Below, piece after piece: positions 5,567-26,534 of a stretch of 34,345 nt of DNA (the stretch's first letter is position 1; each line of letters starts with the position of its first letter). The stretch is from an uncultured Bacilli bacterium (GTDB taxonomy: Bacteria > Bacillota_I > Bacilli_A > RF39 > UBA660). The stretch lies in the NCBI GenBank assembly GCA_947628375.1, contig CANQZQ010000003.1:1-34345 (forward strand). The letters run 5' to 3'. Position numbers and translations under genes: made by a program. The notes below the pieces were generated by a model. That model was not told where the DNA came from and did not search any database. It saw nothing but the letters and a program-made list of their open reading frames with translations.

Positions 5567-6187
5567 ATGAATAGTGAAAGATTAAATAAAATTGCTAGTA
5601 AAATTAGCAAAAATGACATTGTTTTAGACGTTGGTTGTGATCATGGCTATTTAAGTATTATACTTAAAAAAAATAAATTATGTAAAAAAGTCTATGCTAG
5701 CGAAATATCTCAAAATGCTTTAGATAATGCTAAAGCTAATTTTAAAAAAAATCATGTTAAAATAGATATCTTTTTAAGTGATGGATTTAAAAATATTCCT
5801 GTAGAGTTTAATACTGCTGTGATTGCCGGTATGGGTACGCATACTATTTTAAATATTTTAAATCATCCTTCTGCTCCCGAAAAATTAATTCTGGCTAGTA
5901 ATAATGATTATTATTTACTTCGTAAAACTTTAAATGAAATTGGATATAAAATAGTATCAGAAGATGTAGTCTTAGAAAATAATCATTATTATGTTATTCT
6001 TTTATGTATCAAAGCTTATCAAAAATTATCGAGAAAAGAATTGCTTTACGGTATATCTAATAATGAAACATATTATAATTATTTATTAAATGAAAGAAAA
6101 AAGATACTTCCAAAAGTACCTTTATCAAAAAAAATTAAATTAATGAAAGAATGTTATGAATTAAAAGGCCTTATTGAAAAAAAGTAA
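5567..6187 (+). CDS. trmK: tRNA (adenine22-N1) methyltransferase TrmK family
   Basis: LDVGCDHGYL, LSDGF, VIAGMG; conserved position after sigA. Confidence 0.88.
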   Translation: MNSERLNKIASKISKNDIVLDVGCDHGYLSIILKKNKLCKKVYASEISQNALDNAKANFKKNHVKIDIFLSDGFKNIPVEFNTAVIAGMGTHTILNILNHPSAPEKLILASNNDYYLLRKTLNEIGYKIVSEDVVLENNHYYVILLCIKAYQKLSRKELLYGISNNETYYNYLLNERKKILPKVPLSKKIKLMKECYELKGLIEKK

Positions 6188-6494: not shown

Positions 6495-6941
6495 TTATTT
6501 TCTTTTATGAATATTTCTATCATCAGTTAAATATAAAAGATAATCAATAGAAACATTATAATATTTAGCTAAAATTATAAGCTTATTAATAGGTATTTCA
6601 CTATAATCAGATTCATAATGGGAATAGCCTTTACGAGACATATTAAGTATTTTAGCAATATCTTCTTGTAATAAATCTCGATCTTCTCTTATTTCTTTTA
6701 ATCTTATTAAAGAATTATTATTTATTTTTGATTCTTCATATTTATCTTTAATATCAGTTAATTCTAATAAATAATCAACACTAACATTATAAAAAGAAGC
6801 TAGGTTTTTAAGAGTCTCTAACGATATTTTTCTTGCTTCTCTTTCATATTGTGAATAACCAGTTTGGCTCATATTTATTAGATTAGCTAATTCTTTTTGA
6901 CTTAAATTTTTTTCTTTTCTTAAACTCTTTAATCTTTTCAT
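6495..6941 (-). CDS. XRE-family regulator with two tandem HTH domains
   Basis: RLKSLRKEKNLSQKELA...YNVSVDYLLELTD repeated as RLKEIREDRDLLQEDIA...YNVSIDYLLYLTD. Confidence 0.9.
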   Translation of the reverse strand: MKRLKSLRKEKNLSQKELANLINMSQTGYSQYEREARKISLETLKNLASFYNVSVDYLLELTDIKDKYEESKINNNSLIRLKEIREDRDLLQEDIAKILNMSRKGYSHYESDYSEIPINKLIILAKYYNVSIDYLLYLTDDRNIHKRK

Positions 6942-7055: not shown

Positions 7056-9275
7056 ATGAAGAATAAAAAGAAAACAATAATGTTAATAATGGTAATAACA
7101 ATATCTATGGTATTATTAACATATAATAAGAGTTATTCATATAAAATGAATGATAATGAACCAGAAGAAACAGAAATAGAAAGAAAAGAATTTGGAATAT
7201 ATTTACAAGAAAGTGGAGAAAATTATACAGAAACAGATACATTTCCAATTCAAGGATATTTATTAAATACAACAAAAACAGAATGCCATGAATATGGAAC
7301 TAATAATGTAATACAAAACGCTGTAACCCAAAGTTTAACAAATGGAGTAATAGATGGAAGTATCATAGTAACAAGTCAAAAGAGTATGTATTGTAAAATA
7401 TATTTTGATAAAGATGAGAAACCAACAGTAACTTCATTTAATATAGCAGGTAAAACATCAAGTGGAGATAGTTTAAGTAATGGATTTACATATAATACAG
7501 GAGTATATACAATAAATTGGAATGATGGAGACGTAGCACAATATTGTTTAAGCAATAGTAATAACTCATGTACAGATTGGCATGCATTAAATAAAAGTCA
7601 AAAAACGAGTAAAACCATAACAATAGAGAATAATACATATACAAATACAGAAGGCCCAAAAACAATATATGCATATATAAAAGATAAAGCAAATAATATA
7701 TCAAGTATAACATCTATTTCTACTGCAAATATAACAGTAGATCAAACACCACCCAAAGTAACATTAACATTAACTGGAACTAGTGCTAGTCCATTTGTTG
7801 TTACAAGTGGATATACCCATACAACAAAGGTTAATTATACATCGACTATAACAGAAACAAATCCAGAAAGTTATTGTGTAGGAGAAAATTCATGTAGCAA
7901 TTATAGTGCATCATCTTCAACATCAATAAGAGGTAATACAACGATAGCTAACACAGAAATACTCCATACAGTAATAATAAATGTAAAAGATAAAGCAGGA
8001 AATGTAGGAAGTAAAACTCAATCGATAATATTAGACACACAAAATCCAATAATAACATTAAGTAATGAAAAAGCAACAGAAACAAGTATAACAGTAACAG
8101 TAAATGCAAGTGATACTCATGGCATTGCTGGTATAACATGTACAGCAGTAGGAAATGGTGGAACAAAAACTGGAACATATACAAATAATACATGTATATT
8201 TAGTGATTTAAAAGATGGAACACAATATACAATAACAGGAGAGGCAACTGATGCGTCGGGAAGAAAAGGAACAAGTAATTCAATAAGTGTAACCACTGTA
8301 AAAGTAAAATTAACAAGAGAAAATATTCCAAGCAAATTATTTAATGGAGTTAATCCAAATGGATTAAGCGATAAATTATTAGGTGACATGTACAGGTTTG
8401 TAGGTACGAAAGATACAGTAGATAATTGGATATGCTTTGGATATAATAATATAAATACTGATTGTAAAGCAGAAACAAGTGATTATATGTATAGAATAAT
8501 AGGAATTACTGAAGATGGTCAACTAAAATTAATTAAAAATACAGTTATTAGAGAGGGGACAACTTATAATTATGGATGGTTTGGTAATAATACAGGAGAA
8601 ATAACATGGCCACAATCAGACATATATAAAAGATTAAACGGTCAGATGGCAGGAATTACACAAGGATCTAATGGAAATACCAATTTATTTATAGATAGTA
8701 CTACAAGTAATGTACAATATATAAAATCAAGTGGTACAGAAGAACAAACGAAATGGTATAACAAAATAGATATTAAACATAAGTGGTTATATGGAGGAAT
8801 TTATCATAATTACGTAGGCCAAACTGCTGATAATATATACAAAATAGAGTCAGGTCAATTAGAAACTGTACAATATTATGGAGAAAATCCTAGTAAATGG
8901 GCGGAAAGCATTGAGGCAGCTATAGGATTAATGTATATTAGTGATTATTATTATTCATATGTACCGTACATGGGCGGTGGGACGGATTCATCGAGTGTAA
9001 ATTGTCATGATGCTGGGTGTATTGGTAGCTGGCTTTTTCTAAGTAAAAATGGTGAAGGAATCCAAACAGAGGAGGTGTATGAGTGGACGATGACACGTGA
9101 TGGATTTCCGTCTTCTGATAGCCCGCACGCCCATGTAGTTGGACAGAGTGGGAGAATGTATTACTTCAATCGTGCGTGGTCCGCTTTTGTTCGACCGGCC
9201 TTCTATCTTTACTCTAATATAAAAATAATTGATGGAAGCGGTGTTTCATCAGATCCATTTATAATCGCAGCATAA
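7056..9275 (+). CDS. Exported modular protein: signal/anchor, two Ig-like repeats, FN3-like domain, C-terminal DUF6273/C-type-lectin-like domain
   Basis: Basic+hydrophobic N-terminus; repeats YC...C...KDKANN...DQTPP and YC...C...KDKAGN...DTQNP about 100 aa apart; TETSITV...LKDGTQYTI; C-terminal YRIIGI...IGLMYISDY...EWTMTR...VRPAFYL...DPFII. Confidence 0.75.
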   Translation: MKNKKKTIMLIMVITISMVLLTYNKSYSYKMNDNEPEETEIERKEFGIYLQESGENYTETDTFPIQGYLLNTTKTECHEYGTNNVIQNAVTQSLTNGVIDGSIIVTSQKSMYCKIYFDKDEKPTVTSFNIAGKTSSGDSLSNGFTYNTGVYTINWNDGDVAQYCLSNSNNSCTDWHALNKSQKTSKTITIENNTYTNTEGPKTIYAYIKDKANNISSITSISTANITVDQTPPKVTLTLTGTSASPFVVTSGYTHTTKVNYTSTITETNPESYCVGENSCSNYSASSSTSIRGNTTIANTEILHTVIINVKDKAGNVGSKTQSIILDTQNPIITLSNEKATETSITVTVNASDTHGIAGITCTAVGNGGTKTGTYTNNTCIFSDLKDGTQYTITGEATDASGRKGTSNSISVTTVKVKLTRENIPSKLFNGVNPNGLSDKLLGDMYRFVGTKDTVDNWICFGYNNINTDCKAETSDYMYRIIGITEDGQLKLIKNTVIREGTTYNYGWFGNNTGEITWPQSDIYKRLNGQMAGITQGSNGNTNLFIDSTTSNVQYIKSSGTEEQTKWYNKIDIKHKWLYGGIYHNYVGQTADNIYKIESGQLETVQYYGENPSKWAESIEAAIGLMYISDYYYSYVPYMGGGTDSSSVNCHDAGCIGSWLFLSKNGEGIQTEEVYEWTMTRDGFPSSDSPHAHVVGQSGRMYYFNRAWSAFVRPAFYLYSNIKIIDGSGVSSDPFIIAA

Positions 9276-23595: not shown

Positions 23596-24481
23596 ATTAG
23601 AAAGCTTAAAATCATTATATAAACCATATCGTTATACTATTAAAGGAAAATGTACAATTTTAGAAACTACAAGTGGTAATTTTGTCGTTAAGAAAAAACC
23701 AAAAAATAAAGACTTAAATAGTATTTTTAATTATTTAAAAAGTCGTGGGTTTAATAATTTTCCAGAATGTTTTTCATCTTTTAATAGTCGTGATGATGAT
23801 ATCGTTTATGAATACATTGAAGATAATGAAATAATTAACCCTAATAAATGCGAAGATTTAATTTCTTTGGTGGCCCTTTTACATTCTAAAACTTCTTATA
23901 ATAAAGAAGTAAGAGAAGAAACCTATCAAGAAATATATGAAAATATTGATAATAATATTGCTTATTTAAAAAGTTATTATTTAAAGTATTATGATTTATT
24001 TTTAAAAAGTATTTACCCGTCCCCCAAAGAATATGAATTTTTAAGAAATTATTCTAAAATCAATGCAGCTTTAGATTTTTCTAAAAGAGAGTTAGATGAT
24101 TGGTTTAATTTAGTCAAGGATAAAAAAAGTGAAAGAATATCTTTAGTTCATAATAATTTAAGCCTAGATCATTATTTAATTAATGATAAAGAATATTTAA
24201 TAAGTTGGGATAATGCTAAATTTGATACGCCAATCTTAGATTTATATAATCTATATCAAAATAACTTTTGGGATTTAGAATTTAGTAGTATTTATAAAAA
24301 ATATTTGTTAACTTCTCCTTTATCTAATGAGGAGCAAAAATTATTTTTTATTTTAATAAGTTTAGTCCCCGAGATTAATTTTGATGGTTCGGAATTTGAA
24401 GTATGTAAAGAGATGCGTAAAAAAATAGATTATATTTATAAAACTGAGGACTTTTTAAAAGAATATTATCAAAATGAGTAA
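23588..24481 (+). CDS. ysxE: YsxE/CotS-family kinase-like spore coat protein
   Basis: VALLHSKT, LVHNNLSLDHYL, YLISWDNAKFDTPILDL; spoVID-ysxE synteny. Confidence 0.7.
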   Translation: MNKLESLKSLYKPYRYTIKGKCTILETTSGNFVVKKKPKNKDLNSIFNYLKSRGFNNFPECFSSFNSRDDDIVYEYIEDNEIINPNKCEDLISLVALLHSKTSYNKEVREETYQEIYENIDNNIAYLKSYYLKYYDLFLKSIYPSPKEYEFLRNYSKINAALDFSKRELDDWFNLVKDKKSERISLVHNNLSLDHYLINDKEYLISWDNAKFDTPILDLYNLYQNNFWDLEFSSIYKKYLLTSPLSNEEQKLFFILISLVPEINFDGSEFEVCKEMRKKIDYIYKTEDFLKEYYQNE

Positions 24482-24486
24482 ATGAT

Positions 24487-24660
24487 TTAAAACCAAACAA
24501 TTCTGCTTATACAAGCAAAGAGTAAAAGTATTTCTACAAATAAAATAAAAATATTATATCTAAATGGCAAAATAAAAGTTATAATTAATTGATAAAAAAT
24601 TAAAATACATAAACCAATGGCACAAAAAATATAAAATGTTGGATTAGGCCTTTTAGGCAT
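24487..24660 (-). CDS. 57-aa two-TM small membrane protein
   Basis: MPKRPNPTFYIFCAIGLCILIF...; AGGTGAT SD upstream of ATG at 24660. Confidence 0.55.
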   Translation of the reverse strand: MPKRPNPTFYIFCAIGLCILIFYQLIITFILPFRYNIFILFVEILLLFACISRIVWF

Positions 24661-24662
24661 AG

Positions 24663-24700
24663 ATATCACCTATAATAATATATTATTGGTGATATTTTTT
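24663..24700 (+). terminator. Hairpin with T-tract on + strand; covers the SD of the minus-strand small gene
   Basis: ATATCACC (24663-24670) / GGTGATAT (24688-24695), inner AATAATA/TATTATT, T run to 24700. Confidence 0.55.
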
Positions 24701-24772
24701 GTGCAAAACTATTTAAAAAGATAAAAAAATATGATAATATAAAAGTAATAGAAAAATAGAAAGAGGATAGTT

Positions 24773-26363
24773 ATGGAAAGACAAAATATTGTTCGCTCGG
24801 GGGGGGGTATTAAAAAGTAAATTAAAAGTTTTATGGGCCGTAATACTCGTAACACTTTTAATTGGAAGCCTGGGAATAAGTTATGCTTATTTTAATGCAG
24901 TAGATAGTAATAAAAGAACAGCAAATGTTATTTTAAAAGGTAAGACAGGATGTATAGATGTAAGCTTAACTGAAAACGAAGTAGAATTGCAATATAATTA
25001 TCCAATAACAGATGAATATGCCATAGATAATGTTAAACCAATAACAATAACAATAAAAAATAATTGTAGTACAGATGATGTCGATTATAGTTTAGTAATA
25101 ACAACATTATCAAATTATGAAGATGAAGATGAAAATAATCCAAATATACCAGCCAGTAAAATAAAGACAAAGATTGATAAGAATAATGAAACATTAATAG
25201 AAACTAATTTTTTAAATGAAATAAATAAATTAAAAGATAATACAACAACCAAGACATTAATAGATAACAAATTAAATAATATGAATGAGACAAAAGGATA
25301 TAGTCATAAAAATACATATGTAATAGATAAAGAAAAGATAACAAAAAATGATACAATAACATATGAGATATATATGTGGATAGATTACAATGAAGGGGGT
25401 ATAAATAATTCAACCAAGGGAAAGACATTTAAAAATATAATAAGTGTAGTAGTAAATAATCCAGAGGACAGTGTAAAAGCAGGAGTTGAACTAAATGCAA
25501 TGGAATATGTACTTGCTCAAAAACCAAATGGGCTAAGTGAAAAGCTACTAGGAGACATGTATAGATTTGTTGGGACTAAAGCAGATGTAAATAATTATAT
25601 ATGTTTTGGAACAACAAATAAAGATGAATGTACTGAGACAAGTGATTATATGTACAGAATAATAGGAATAACACAAGATGGAAAAATGAAGTTAATTAAA
25701 AATACAGCTATAAGGGAGGAAACCTTATATCAATATTACTGGCATAGTGACTTGAGAGCTGGAGCGACGTGGGAAGATTCTGATATATTTAAAAGATTGA
25801 ATGGTAATGATGTTAATCAATCTGGATCCTCTAATTTATTTATAGATAGTAAAACGAGTAATGTACAATATATAACGACTGGAAACAATTGGTATAACAA
25901 GATAGAGGACCACACCTGGAAATATGGTGATGTACCGAGTATAGATACTGATGCTGATAGTGTATATAGTATAGAGAGTAAGTTTGCTGATGTCATTCAA
26001 GCAAAGGTTGGATTAATATATGTAAGTGATTATTACTATTCGTATAGTATTTCGGGAAAAGATTCATCAGATACAAATTGCAATTACGCTGATCATTCTG
26101 TGAGATGTATTAATAGTTGGATGCATATAAGTAATAATGGAAAAACTGATGATTATCAAGTTGAATGGACAATGGATCGATTTGGTAAAAACTACAATTT
26201 TAATTACGTGACATATTTCATATCTGATAACGGAAGTGCTAGTGCTAATGAAAATGTATTGTACTCCAATGACTCCGTTCGCCCGGTCTTCTATCTGAAC
26301 TCTGATATTACATTATCTGGAGGGATTGGTAGTTTATCAGATCCATTTATAGTTGAAAAATAA
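24773..26363 (+). CDS. Exported protein with SipW-type signal and C-terminal DUF6273/C-lectin-like domain; out of frame at a G9 tract (putative phase-OFF)
   Basis: AGAGGA SD + ATG 24773 reads MERQNIVRSGGGIKK*; G8 would fuse it to the long frame (529 aa). LGISYAYF; C-terminal domain paralogous to 7056-9275. Confidence 0.8.
24799..24807 (+). repeat. G9 homopolymer (slipped-strand switch)
   Basis: cgctcGGGGGGGGGtatt; longest G run I saw in the window. Confidence 0.9.
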
Positions 26364-26375
26364 GTAATTTATTAT

Positions 26376-26408
26376 AAAAATAGTTTTGAAATAGGAAACT
26401 ATTTTTTT
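26376..26408 (+). terminator. Intrinsic terminator
   Basis: AAAAATAGTTT ... AAACTATTTTTTT. Confidence 0.6.
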
Positions 26409-26438
26409 AAATTTAAAAAATTAAAAAATTTTTAAAAA

Positions 26439-26466
26439 TTAGCACTCATATATTGACAAGTGCTAA
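26439..26466. promoter_or_regulatory. CIRCE-like element 1 (10-nt spacer) over the -35
   Basis: TTAGCACTC-N10-AAGTGCTAA. Confidence 0.75.
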
Positions 26467-26481
26467 GCATAATATTATAAT
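26453..26481 (+). promoter_or_regulatory. Consensus sigmaA promoter of the hrcA operon
   Basis: TTGACA (26453-26458), 17 bp, TATAAT (26476-26481). Confidence 0.9.
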
Positions 26482-26485
26482 GATA

Positions 26486-26512
26486 TTAGCATTCAAAAAA
26501 GAGGAGTGCTAA
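26486..26512. promoter_or_regulatory. CIRCE element 2
   Basis: TTAGCATTC-N9-GAGTGCTAA. Confidence 0.92.
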
Positions 26513-26534
26513 TATTAAGAAAGCGGGTGATATA

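What the first reader, a model, noticed from the sequence alone, without database searches (positions are those of the whole stretch)
24762..24820. Poly-G phase-variation switch, captured in the OFF state
Seen: SD AGAGGA, ATG 24773, then G9 (24799-24807) gives MERQNIVRSGGGIKK* (TAA 24818-24820). G8 or G11 puts the ATG in frame with the signal peptide and the intact downstream ORF. The ORF-track TTG 24789 has no well-spaced SD. G9 in such AT-rich DNA is unlikely by chance. Established: homopolymer slippage drives ON/OFF switching of surface genes. Inference: ON/OFF switching layered on a sequence-diversified tip, i.e. an antigenic/adhesin variation repertoire.
Basis: partly seen in the sequence, partly recalled or inferred. 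Interest (0 to 1): 0.82.

Follow-up and report, generated by a model that had tools for sequence, protein, structure and literature searches.

The report
Poly-G frameshift switch on surface gene
A run of nine G's at the very start of a surface-protein gene in an uncultured gut bacterium looks like a classic slippage-driven on/off switch, one of many such switches in this bacterial genus, though switching itself was not observed.

Summary
G9 lies at 24799-24807. SD AGAGGA and ATG 24773 give a 15-codon dead end (TAA 24818-20). G8 or G11 joins that ATG to the intact ORF ending at 26363.

G/C runs of 8 or more are far beyond chance in this 25.7% GC genome: 5 in 1.3 Mb, each in or just before the 5' part of an ORF.

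A paralog on another contig has the same leader with G8 and is in frame. The same promoter-SD-ATG-polyG cassette recurs in other species of the genus. Of 17 copies whose frame can be read, 2 are ON, 14 are one G too long and 1 is two too long. In all, 38 of 42 genus genomes carry G8+ tracts.

The protein has an N-terminal membrane helix, a tentatively TasA-like domain, and a variable C-terminal lectin-like domain resembling the N-terminal domain of an IgA peptidase.

Best reading: a slipped-strand phase-variation switch, assembled in an OFF or at most weak state. At G9 only an SD-less TTG is in frame.

Tract-length variation in reads could not be tested.

This is a known kind of switch in a new lineage. 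Interest is moderate.

The parts
24732..24740 (+). Extended -10-like element TGATAATAT (TG 24732-33, TAATAT 24735-40). It marks the start of the stretch shared with the paralog and with another species.
   Evidence: Read. These columns are invariant in the 5-sequence alignment. The promoter scan found no canonical -35/-10 pair on the + strand, so the promoter role is inferred.
24762..24767 (+). Shine-Dalgarno-like AGAGGA, 5 nt before ATG 24773
   Evidence: GAGG word 6 nt from the ATG. Invariant.
24773..24820 (+). Leader reading frame from the SD-served ATG. At G9 it gives 15 codons and then TAA 24818-24820.
24789..24791 (+). TTG, the only start codon in frame with the long ORF at G9. It has no SD word upstream.
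24799..24807 (+). G9 homopolymer, the proposed slippage tract
   Evidence: The paralog G000:C97 has G8 at the same place.
24789..26363 (+). Long ORF (524 aa from TTG; 529 aa from ATG 24773 if the tract were G8): the switched gene
   Evidence: Homologs are listed.
24810..24893 (+). N-terminal hydrophobic helix (residues 8-29) followed by S-Y-A-Y-F (residues 31-35): signal or anchor segment
   Evidence: Predicted helix. Y32 and A33 are conserved. A similar segment occurs in the G000:C49 proteins.
24948..25457 (+). N-terminal beta-sandwich domain (residues 54-223), tentatively TasA-like
   Evidence: The best structural match in both searches is the TasA fibre 8aur_A: Z 7.6 and Z 7.2, rmsd 3.9 over 138 residues. 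Both are below the Z 8 caution line.
25491..26360 (+). C-terminal domain (residues 235-524) shared by the paralog family. It resembles the N-terminal domain of the Thomasclavelia ramosa IgA peptidase, which has a C-type-lectin-like core.
   Evidence: Match to 9qa6 residues 32-304: Z 16.4, rmsd 3.3 over 213 residues and Foldseek E 5.2e-6. The domain description comes from passages of PMC12237041.

Best explanation
The G9 run is a hypermutable tract that gains or loses a G by slipped-strand mispairing during replication. It sits 26 nt after the ribosome-binding-site-served ATG and directly before the membrane helix of a surface protein, so its length sets the reading frame:
- G8 or G11: the full protein is made from ATG 24773 (ON).
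- G9, as assembled: the ATG frame dies after 15 codons. Only an SD-less TTG is in frame (OFF or weak).
- G10: no start codon at all (OFF).

The gene is one of two copies in this genome that carry the same promoter-leader-polyG cassette in front of a conserved N-terminal module and a diverged C-terminal lectin-like module. The other copy is in the ON length.

Shown: the anatomy, the frames, the excess of such tracts, and length differences among near-identical cassettes.

Inferred: that the length changes within a population, and that this turns the protein on and off.
For: 1. Frames and start signals are as stated.

2. Only 5 G/C runs of 8 or more occur in 1.3 Mb. All lie in or just before the 5' part of an ORF:
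- this gene;
- its paralog G000:C97 (G8, ATG in frame, 573 aa);
- two G9 runs inside TTGACA-N19-TATAAT upstream of two tandem 228- and 231-aa genes that share the hydrophobic helix plus AYF segment;
- one in-frame run near the start of a 193-aa ORF.

3. From the -10-like element to the tract, the sequence is almost invariant between the two paralogs and three copies in another species, G031. Downstream sequence diverges.

4. Coding-type cassettes were found in 6 genus genomes whose frame can be read (G000, G031, G061, G063, G064, G030). Of 17 readable copies, 2 are ON, 14 are ON+1 and 1 is ON+2. In G030, one leader family shows G9 (ON), G10 x4 and G11.

5. OFF copies in G064 and G030 have no alternative in-frame start. 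They are therefore truly untranslatable as assembled.

6. In G023, 16 cassettes of one type differ at 1.7% of flank sites, yet 46% of pairs differ in tract length.

7. G8+ tracts occur in 38 of 42 genus genomes.

8. In C. jejuni, G8 tracts switch ON-to-OFF mainly by +1 insertion (11:1 and 24:1). G8-to-G9 is faster than G9-to-G8 (6.9 against 2.1 x 10^-4), and the modal length is G9 (PMC3401435: abstract, section 15). By analogy this would explain the excess of ON+1 copies.
Against: - No read-level data exist. Only Logan contigs of four runs of one sample could be laid. Contigs cross the tract in 3 of the 4 runs, and all of these carry G8 plus A at 24817. None shows G9. Nothing here demonstrates heterogeneity at this locus.
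- 14 of 17 copies sit at exactly ON+1. An RNA-level or ribosomal recoding mechanism, or a systematic assembly bias, would also predict that.
- MutS and MutL are both present, so there is no mismatch-repair defect to boost slippage. That is unlike C. jejuni as I recall it, so the analogy is imperfect.
- At G9 the long ORF is open from TTG 24789. The same -10-nt TTG occurs in a second leader family (G061, G063).
- No expression data of any kind.
Confidence: 0.7

Rival explanations
1. RNA-level or ribosomal recoding. The DNA stays at G9, and a fraction of transcripts lose a G by polymerase slippage, or ribosomes shift +1 on the G run. The gene is then expressed constantly at a low, set level rather than switched.
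For: - 14 of 17 readable copies in six genomes sit at exactly ON+1, in two leader families with different ON lengths (G8 and G9).
- A run of GGG codons allows re-pairing in any frame. This is my inference from the sequence.
Against: - In-frame copies exist (G000:C97, G030 L106), as does an ON+2 copy.
- Non-coding tracts of the same length range occur upstream of genes, where recoding has no meaning.
- No stimulatory element was looked for or seen.
- A tRNA-Gly(CCC) gene is present, so GGG is not an obviously hungry codon.
- Length varies between near-identical cassettes at the DNA level.
Confidence: 0.1
2. No switch at this locus. G9 is the stable working length, the protein starts at TTG 24789, and the upstream ATG frame is a short leader peptide or is irrelevant.
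For: - The gene caller behind the protein collection took the 524-aa TTG form (P0001).
- TTG is in frame at G9 here, in G031, and in the unrelated G061/G063 leader.
- G9 is the commonest length among coding-type copies.
Against: - TTG 24789 has no SD word, while the ATG 16 nt upstream has one. The SD-ATG pair is invariant across copies.
- G064 and G030 copies at the modal length have no in-frame start at all.
- Under this reading the G8 paralog would be the broken copy, although it has a perfect SD-ATG frame of 573 aa.
Confidence: 0.07
3. Assembly or sequencing artefact. The true tract is G8, as in the paralog, and the extra G comes from miscalling or from assembling a repeat shared by two paralogs.
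For: - The Logan contigs that cross the tract, from 3 of 4 runs, all have G8 with A at 24817. One of them (X2 record 10, 24732-25024) otherwise matches the window's gene rather than the paralog (compared).
- The genome is a 122-contig draft.
- Contigs of related genomes often end at such tracts.
Against: - The two paralogs share exactly 31 bases (24818-24848) after the linked difference, by my count. As I recall, Logan contigs use 31-letter words, so a contig path can hop between paralogs. The output itself warns that contigs drop rarer variants.
- G9 with the same frame offset appears in separately assembled genomes of at least four other species.
- Long ORFs across the window are intact, so homopolymer errors are not general.
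Confidence: 0.08
4. A decaying gene: a one-off frameshift mutation in a pseudogene that happens to lie in a G run.
For: A close relative (L116, DnaK 90% identical) has no gene at all between the 297-aa ORF and hrcA, so the gene is dispensable.
Against: - The 524-codon frame downstream has no further stop.
- The predicted fold is confident (mean pLDDT 80).
- The same 'defect' recurs at the same tract in many copies and species.
Confidence: 0.03

Closest known systems
Poly-G/C contingency genes of Campylobacter jejuni
   Same: - G8-G11 tracts lie in the 5' part of genes in an AT-rich genome.
- There are many loci per genome.
- The modal length is G9, and G8 tracts have a +1 insertion bias (PMC3401435: abstract; section 15).
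- Here the tracts are G8-G9 in G000, and 14 of 17 copies in the genus are at ON+1.
   Different: - This is an uncultured, small-genome gut member of the Bacilli. The closest named records are MAGs titled 'uncultured Bacilli bacterium'.
- MutS and MutL are present.
- The switched genes are secreted or anchored proteins with TasA-like and lectin-like domains, not glycan-modifying enzymes. That comparison is recalled, not tested.
- No switching rates have been measured.
Phase-variable genes with start codons in more than one frame
   Same: Two start codons lie in different frames upstream of the repeat. Three repeat states therefore give strong, weak or no translation. Here ATG is in frame at G8, TTG at G9 and nothing at G10.
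   Different: - The repeat here is a mononucleotide run, not a tetranucleotide.
- Use of the TTG is unproven, and it lacks an SD.
Homopolymer tracts upstream of the -10 region in Mycoplasma surface lipoprotein genes
   Same: A multigene family of surface proteins in a small AT-rich genome has a homopolymer in the promoter region. In G000:C49 the arrangement is TTGACA-N19 (containing G9)-TATAAT. G023 has 31 upstream cassettes.
   Different: - The tract in the finding is coding, not in a promoter.
- The run is G, not A.
- In G023 the TTGACT-to-TAATAT distance is only 10-11 nt, which does not fit a normal spacer.
TasA fibres of Bacillus subtilis and the N-terminal domain of the Thomasclavelia ramosa IgA peptidase
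   Same: - The N-domain's best structural match is the TasA fibre (Z 7.2-7.6).
- A SipW-type signal peptidase is encoded in the genome (TIGR02228, 90.3 bits). SipW processes TasA (PMC9674648, passages).
- The C-domain matches the IgAse N-terminal domain at Z 16.4. That domain has a C-type-lectin-like core (PMC12237041, passages).
   Different: - No Pfam, NCBIfam or PDB sequence-level match.
- The TasA match is below Z 8.
- No peptidase domain is present.
- The IgAse N-terminal domain is dispensable for IgA cleavage and its role is unknown, so it implies no IgA function here.

Membership tests
Slipped-strand (simple-sequence-repeat) phase-variable gene | Homopolymer run longer than composition allows | tested here: met
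   G9 at 24799-24807. The genome has 5 G/C runs of 8 or more, against a count that falls to 0-1 at length 7.
Slipped-strand (simple-sequence-repeat) phase-variable gene | The run lies between a functional start and the body of an intact ORF, so that a change of one unit shifts the frame | tested here: met
   The SD-ATG lies 26 nt upstream. The ATG frame is open at G8 and G11 only, and both other frames stop within 5 codons of the tract.
Slipped-strand (simple-sequence-repeat) phase-variable gene | Run length differs between copies or strains while the flanks stay the same | tested here: met
   - G8 in paralog G000:C97 against G9 here, with an identical leader.
- G9, G10 and G11 within one leader family in G030.
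- In G023, 16 cassettes differ at 1.7% of flank sites but 46% of pairs differ in length.
- Not shown for alleles of this very locus.
Slipped-strand (simple-sequence-repeat) phase-variable gene | Length heterogeneity within one population (reads) or a measured switching rate | tested here: inconclusive
   Only contigs of 4 runs of one sample were available. Those crossing the tract show G8 with the paralog-type base at 24817, and none shows G9.
Slipped-strand (simple-sequence-repeat) phase-variable gene | Protein level follows tract length | not testable with these tools
   No RNA or protein data were available. The organism is known only from metagenome assemblies.
Programmed frameshift or transcriptional-slippage gene | The out-of-frame arrangement is conserved among relatives | tested here: inconclusive
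   14 of 17 readable copies are at ON+1, but 2 are in frame and 1 is at ON+2.
Programmed frameshift or transcriptional-slippage gene | A stimulatory element (slow codon, upstream SD-like site, downstream structure) beside the slippery run | not tested
   No search was made. A tRNA-Gly(CCC) gene is present.
TasA/camelysin-type secreted fibre proteins | Sequence match to the family model | tested here: not met
   No Pfam or NCBIfam family at E up to 0.1 covers the N-domain. It is therefore not filed as a member.
TasA/camelysin-type secreted fibre proteins | Jellyroll fold like TasA, with a cognate SipW-type peptidase in the genome | tested here: inconclusive
   - TasA fibre is the top match but only at Z 7.2-7.6.
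- TIGR02228 peptidase is present at G000:C5.
- That the AYF motif is a SipW signal is recalled, not tested.
IgA-peptidase N-terminal (C-type-lectin-like) domain | Shared fold over most of the domain | tested here: met
   Z 16.4, rmsd 3.3, 213 residues aligned: model 235-524 against 9qa6 32-304.
IgA-peptidase N-terminal (C-type-lectin-like) domain | Structural zinc ligands (D78, H90, C126 in IgAse, per PMC12237041) | not tested
   The residue-level alignment was not inspected. There is no sequence-level PDB match.

The most novel reading that the evidence does not exclude
The genus carries a modular, portable 'poly-G expression cassette' system. One short G run is used in at least three ways:
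- in the coding leader;
- directly upstream of a -10 hexamer, with a -35-like TTGACT only 10-11 nt away, which does not fit a normal sigma-70 spacer;
- in 5' untranslated leaders ahead of terminator-like hairpins.

These govern dozens of surface-protein genes per 1-Mb genome. The strong excess of ON+1 copies could mean that part of the control acts at the RNA level (polymerase slippage on G9/G10) rather than only by DNA mutation. That would be a graded, rather than all-or-none, homopolymer switch.
Probability: 0.15. Interest if true: 0.75.

Novelty: new member of a known kind. Interest (0 to 1): 0.48.

Why it matters
Homopolymer phase variation is textbook for Campylobacter, Neisseria, Helicobacter and mycoplasmas. 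My searches found no account of it for these uncultured, small-genome gut Bacilli: searches gave nothing relevant, and none of the 12 listed of the 19 papers concerns this lineage.

If real, the switch means these commensals run a stochastic surface repertoire. Most of the genus carries such tracts (38 of 42 genomes), with up to about 30 per genome in the two genomes counted (31 in G023, 24 in G030). The genes under their control encode fibre-like and lectin-like proteins.

That bears on how such bacteria persist under immune and phage pressure. It also has a practical side. Gene callers mis-start or split these genes, and assemblies break at them, so metagenome catalogues systematically misdescribe this part of the proteome.

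Tried and rejected
- **Reads.** The look-up of sequencing runs gave 4 runs of one sample, kept as contigs only. Laying them showed no contig with G9. Window-specific contigs stop at 24761, where the stretch shared with the paralog begins. No tract-length distribution could be obtained, and both caps are used.
- **Metagenome pattern scans.** Scans for this leader and for the G061-type leader with any tract length gave 0 hits each.
- **The search for related loci with the protein** in genome contigs found no relative.
- **Family libraries.** Pfam and NCBIfam gave no family for the gene. Pfam and PHROGs gave nothing usable for the G000:C49 and G000:C1 ORFs, so I do not call the C1 region a prophage. 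The PDB sequence profile search gave 0 hits.
- **Promoter scan** found no canonical sigma-70 pair on the + strand before the gene.
- **Synteny.** None of the 45 DnaK-anchored loci of relatives that I scanned (L115-L159, of 80 fetched) has a G/C run of 7 or more. The one relative that holds both flanking genes, L116, lacks the gene.
- **Earlier scan notes:** nothing shown.
- **Mismatch-repair loss** as the cause of instability is rejected, because MutS and MutL are present.
- **Supplementary files** of the papers were not opened.

Full report
**The observation**

AGAGGA lies at 24762-24767, ATG at 24773 and G9 at 24799-24807. The ATG frame reads MERQNIVRSGGGIKK and ends at TAA 24818-24820. The only long ORF here runs from TTG 24789 to 26363 (524 aa), one base to the right of the ATG frame.

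A length series computed on the window gave these frames:

| Tract length | ATG 24773 frame | TTG 24789 frame |
|---|---|---|
| G6 | closed | open |
| G7 | closed | closed |
| G8 | open (529 aa) | closed |
| G9 | closed | open (524 aa) |
| G10 | closed | closed |
| G11 | open (530 aa) | closed |
| G12 | closed | open |
| G13 | closed | closed |

The locus therefore has three states, not two.

**Start signals**

Among ORFs of at least 200 codons in this genome whose first start is ATG, 393 of 572 have an SD word 3-12 nt upstream. ATG 24773 has GAGG at 6 nt, and TTG 24789 has none. The stretch TGATAATAT at 24732-24740 looks like an extended -10 element. The simple promoter scan found no canonical pair on this strand, so the promoter is inferred.

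**Chance**

The window is contig C3 of a 1,296,776-base, 122-contig draft with 25.7% GC. G-run counts fall 129, 11, 0 for lengths 5, 6, 7, then rise to 1 (G8) and 3 (G9). C-run counts fall 110, 7, 1, then show one C9.

The five long runs are:
- this tract;
- G8 in G000:C97;
- two G9 runs in G000:C49;
- one C9 in G000:C1.

All lie in or just before the 5' part of an ORF.
- The C97 run follows the same leader, and its ATG is in frame with a 573-aa product.
- The two C49 runs sit inside TTGACA-N19-TATAAT, upstream of two tandem genes of 228 and 231 aa. Their hydrophobic helix and AYF segment resemble those of the window's protein (E 1e-4 over 47 residues).
- The C1 run is in frame, about 30 codons into a 193-aa ORF of unknown family.

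**The cassette in paralogs and other species**

An alignment of the window, C97 and three copies from another species (G031) shows near-invariance from the -10-like element to the tract. Downstream sequence diverges.

Similar cassettes (promoter-like AT-rich box, SD, ATG, 8-17 codons, poly-G, then a hydrophobic helix) occur in G061 (3 copies), G063 (2), G064 (2), G005 (1) and, with a different leader, G030 (7).

The frame can be read in 17 copies:

| State | Copies | Which |
|---|---|---|
| ON | 2 | G000:C97 (G8); G030 L106 (G9) |
| ON+1 | 14 | the window; G031 x2; G061 x3; G063 x2; G064 x2; G030 x4 |
| ON+2 | 1 | G030 L110 |

Three copies cannot be read. Two end at a contig edge, and one (G005) has only a 25-codon frame after the tract.

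In G064 and G030 the OFF copies have no in-frame start at all. The TTG seen here is therefore not a general escape route.

**The genus**

G8+ runs occur in 38 of 42 genomes of the genus.

I read through all 31 tracts of G023 (21 G8, 10 G9). Every one is non-coding. In most, the tract lies between TTGACT(T/C)C and TAATAT, about 42 nt before an SD-ATG. Among the 16 cassettes of the commonest type, flanks differ at 1.7% of sites, yet 46% of pairs differ in tract length. The tract is by far the most changeable site.

G030 has 24 tracts (G9 x2, G10 x16, G11 x4, G14 x2). I fetched 20 of the 24. Seven are of the coding type, including the G14 copy at a contig end. The rest lie in untranslated leaders ahead of a terminator-like hairpin.

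Outside the genus, G9+ runs are patchy: 46 of 121 sampled genomes of the class.

The N-terminal domain of the protein was found in 36 of 36 other genomes of the genus searched. It was found in 0 of 24 genomes outside it.

**Reads**

Only four runs, all of one sample, hold the stretch, and they are kept as assembled contigs. Laid on 23600-26400, the contigs specific to the window's upstream flank stop at 24761. That is where the sequence shared with C97 begins.

Contigs cross the tract in three of the four runs. All have one G fewer and A at 24817, as in C97. One of them (X2, 24732-25024) otherwise agrees with the window and not with C97, which differs at several more sites.

There are two possible explanations. 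It may be a real G8 form of the window's gene. Or it may be a path through the 31 identical bases (24818-24848) that the paralogs share. I cannot tell which, so I count this as no evidence either way.

**The protein**

There is no Pfam or NCBIfam family. tblastn found 22 further stretches in this genome that match the C-terminal ~280 residues, and one that matches the N-terminal domain only. Most full-length copies start MKNKKNTIMLIM and have no poly-G.

The AlphaFold model has mean pLDDT 80.1.
- Residues 235-524 match the N-terminal domain of the Thomasclavelia ramosa IgA peptidase (9qa6, Z 16.4, rmsd 3.3 over 213 residues; Foldseek E 5.2e-6). Passages of PMC12237041 describe that domain as having a C-type-lectin-like core. 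They report it as not needed for IgA cleavage.
- Residues 54-223 match the TasA fibre best, both in the whole model (Z 7.6) and as a separately predicted domain searched without Foldseek (Z 7.2). Both values are below the level at which a match is safe.
- A SipW-type signal peptidase is encoded at G000:C5 (TIGR02228, 90.3 bits). [quoted passage not shown]

The two poly-G-led paralogs are 84-96% identical over residues 51-250 and 36-56% over 251-524. This is a conserved stalk with a diversified tip.

A close relative, L116, has no gene between the 297-aa ORF and hrcA, so the gene is accessory.

**Mechanism**

I favour a DNA-level slipped-strand switch (0.70). The G8 state gives full translation from ATG 24773. 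The assembled G9 state gives none, or a trickle from the SD-less TTG. G10 gives none.

The excess of ON+1 copies fits what was measured for C. jejuni poly-G tracts. There, G8 tracts leave ON mostly by +1 insertion (11:1 and 24:1). G8-to-G9 runs at 6.9 and G9-to-G8 at 2.1 x 10^-4 per division, and the modal length is G9 (PMC3401435: abstract; section 15). A consensus assembly of a mixed population would then show the majority OFF length at most loci.

This is an analogy, not a measurement. Unlike C. jejuni as I recall it, this genome keeps MutS and MutL.

The rivals and my weights for them:
- RNA-level slippage or a +1 ribosomal shift on the G run (0.10). This would also predict ON+1.
- A fixed G9 with TTG initiation (0.07).
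- An assembly error (0.08).
- Simple decay (0.03).

**Comparison and novelty**

The locus works like the poly-G contingency genes of C. jejuni. In having starts in two frames, it also resembles the multi-start lic genes of Haemophilus, which I recall but did not read here.

It meets the sequence-level criteria of a simple-sequence-repeat phase-variable gene. The population-level and expression criteria remain untested.

My full-text searches found no description of such tracts in this lineage. I rate it a new member of a known kind. The wider pattern in the genus is the more interesting part, especially the non-canonical upstream arrangement and the ON+1 excess.

**Limits**

- No raw reads, no RNA and no protein data.
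- Related genomes are draft assemblies from metagenomes.
- Only three genomes were read tract by tract.
- Supplementary files of the cited papers were not seen.

Noticed in passing
G000:C49:4998-5006 and 6088-6096 (locus L196): Two G9 runs each sit inside TTGACA-N19-TATAAT, upstream of two tandem genes of 228 and 231 aa. These genes share the hydrophobic helix and the T-F-A-Y-F segment. They look like promoter-spacer switches, and G7 would give a 17-nt spacer.
   Followed up: partly
G000:C1:3007-3015 (locus L197, minus strand): A C9 run (G9 on the gene strand) lies in frame about 30 codons into a 193-aa ORF of unknown family. The ORF sits among serine/threonine-rich ORFs. Pfam and PHROGs gave nothing usable.
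   Followed up: partly
G023, 31 places (loci L064-L094): All 31 G8/G9 runs lie in one kind of upstream cassette, about 42 nt before an SD-ATG; in most it reads TTGACT(T/C)C-Gn-TAATAT. The -35-like and -10-like hexamers are only 10-11 nt apart, which does not fit a normal promoter spacer. How the tract acts there is unexplained.
   Followed up: partly
G030, e.g. loci L098, L099, L104, L112: G9-G11 runs lie in untranslated leaders. Each is preceded by a CT-rich stretch and followed, about 45 nt later, by a terminator-like hairpin and then an SD-ATG. This is possibly a tract-dependent attenuator. Structure was not examined.
   Followed up: no
window 6495-6941 (-) and 7056-9275 (+): A second family member (739 aa, MKNKK-type start, no poly-G) is paired with a divergent 148-aa protein that gives two HTH_3 matched stretches (Pfam HTH_3, E 5e-33). 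Other family copies in the genome each show their own short repeat around the promoter. This suggests copy-specific repressors as a second mode of control.
   Followed up: partly
window 24482-26534, compared with locus L116: In a close relative (DnaK 90% identical), the 297-aa ORF and hrcA are about 330 nt apart with no gene between them. The poly-G-led gene therefore looks like an insertion, or a loss in the relative.
   Followed up: partly
G000:C5:20448-20924 (locus L195): A SipW-type (archaeal-type) signal peptidase I gene (250 aa) lies next to a 239-aa membrane protein of unknown family. It could be the processing enzyme for the AYF-type proteins.
   Followed up: no
Contig ends in G023, G030 and G031: Many contigs of related genomes begin or end within about 20-130 nt of a poly-G run, for example at positions 15-22. 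The repeated cassettes evidently break short-read assemblies.
   Followed up: no
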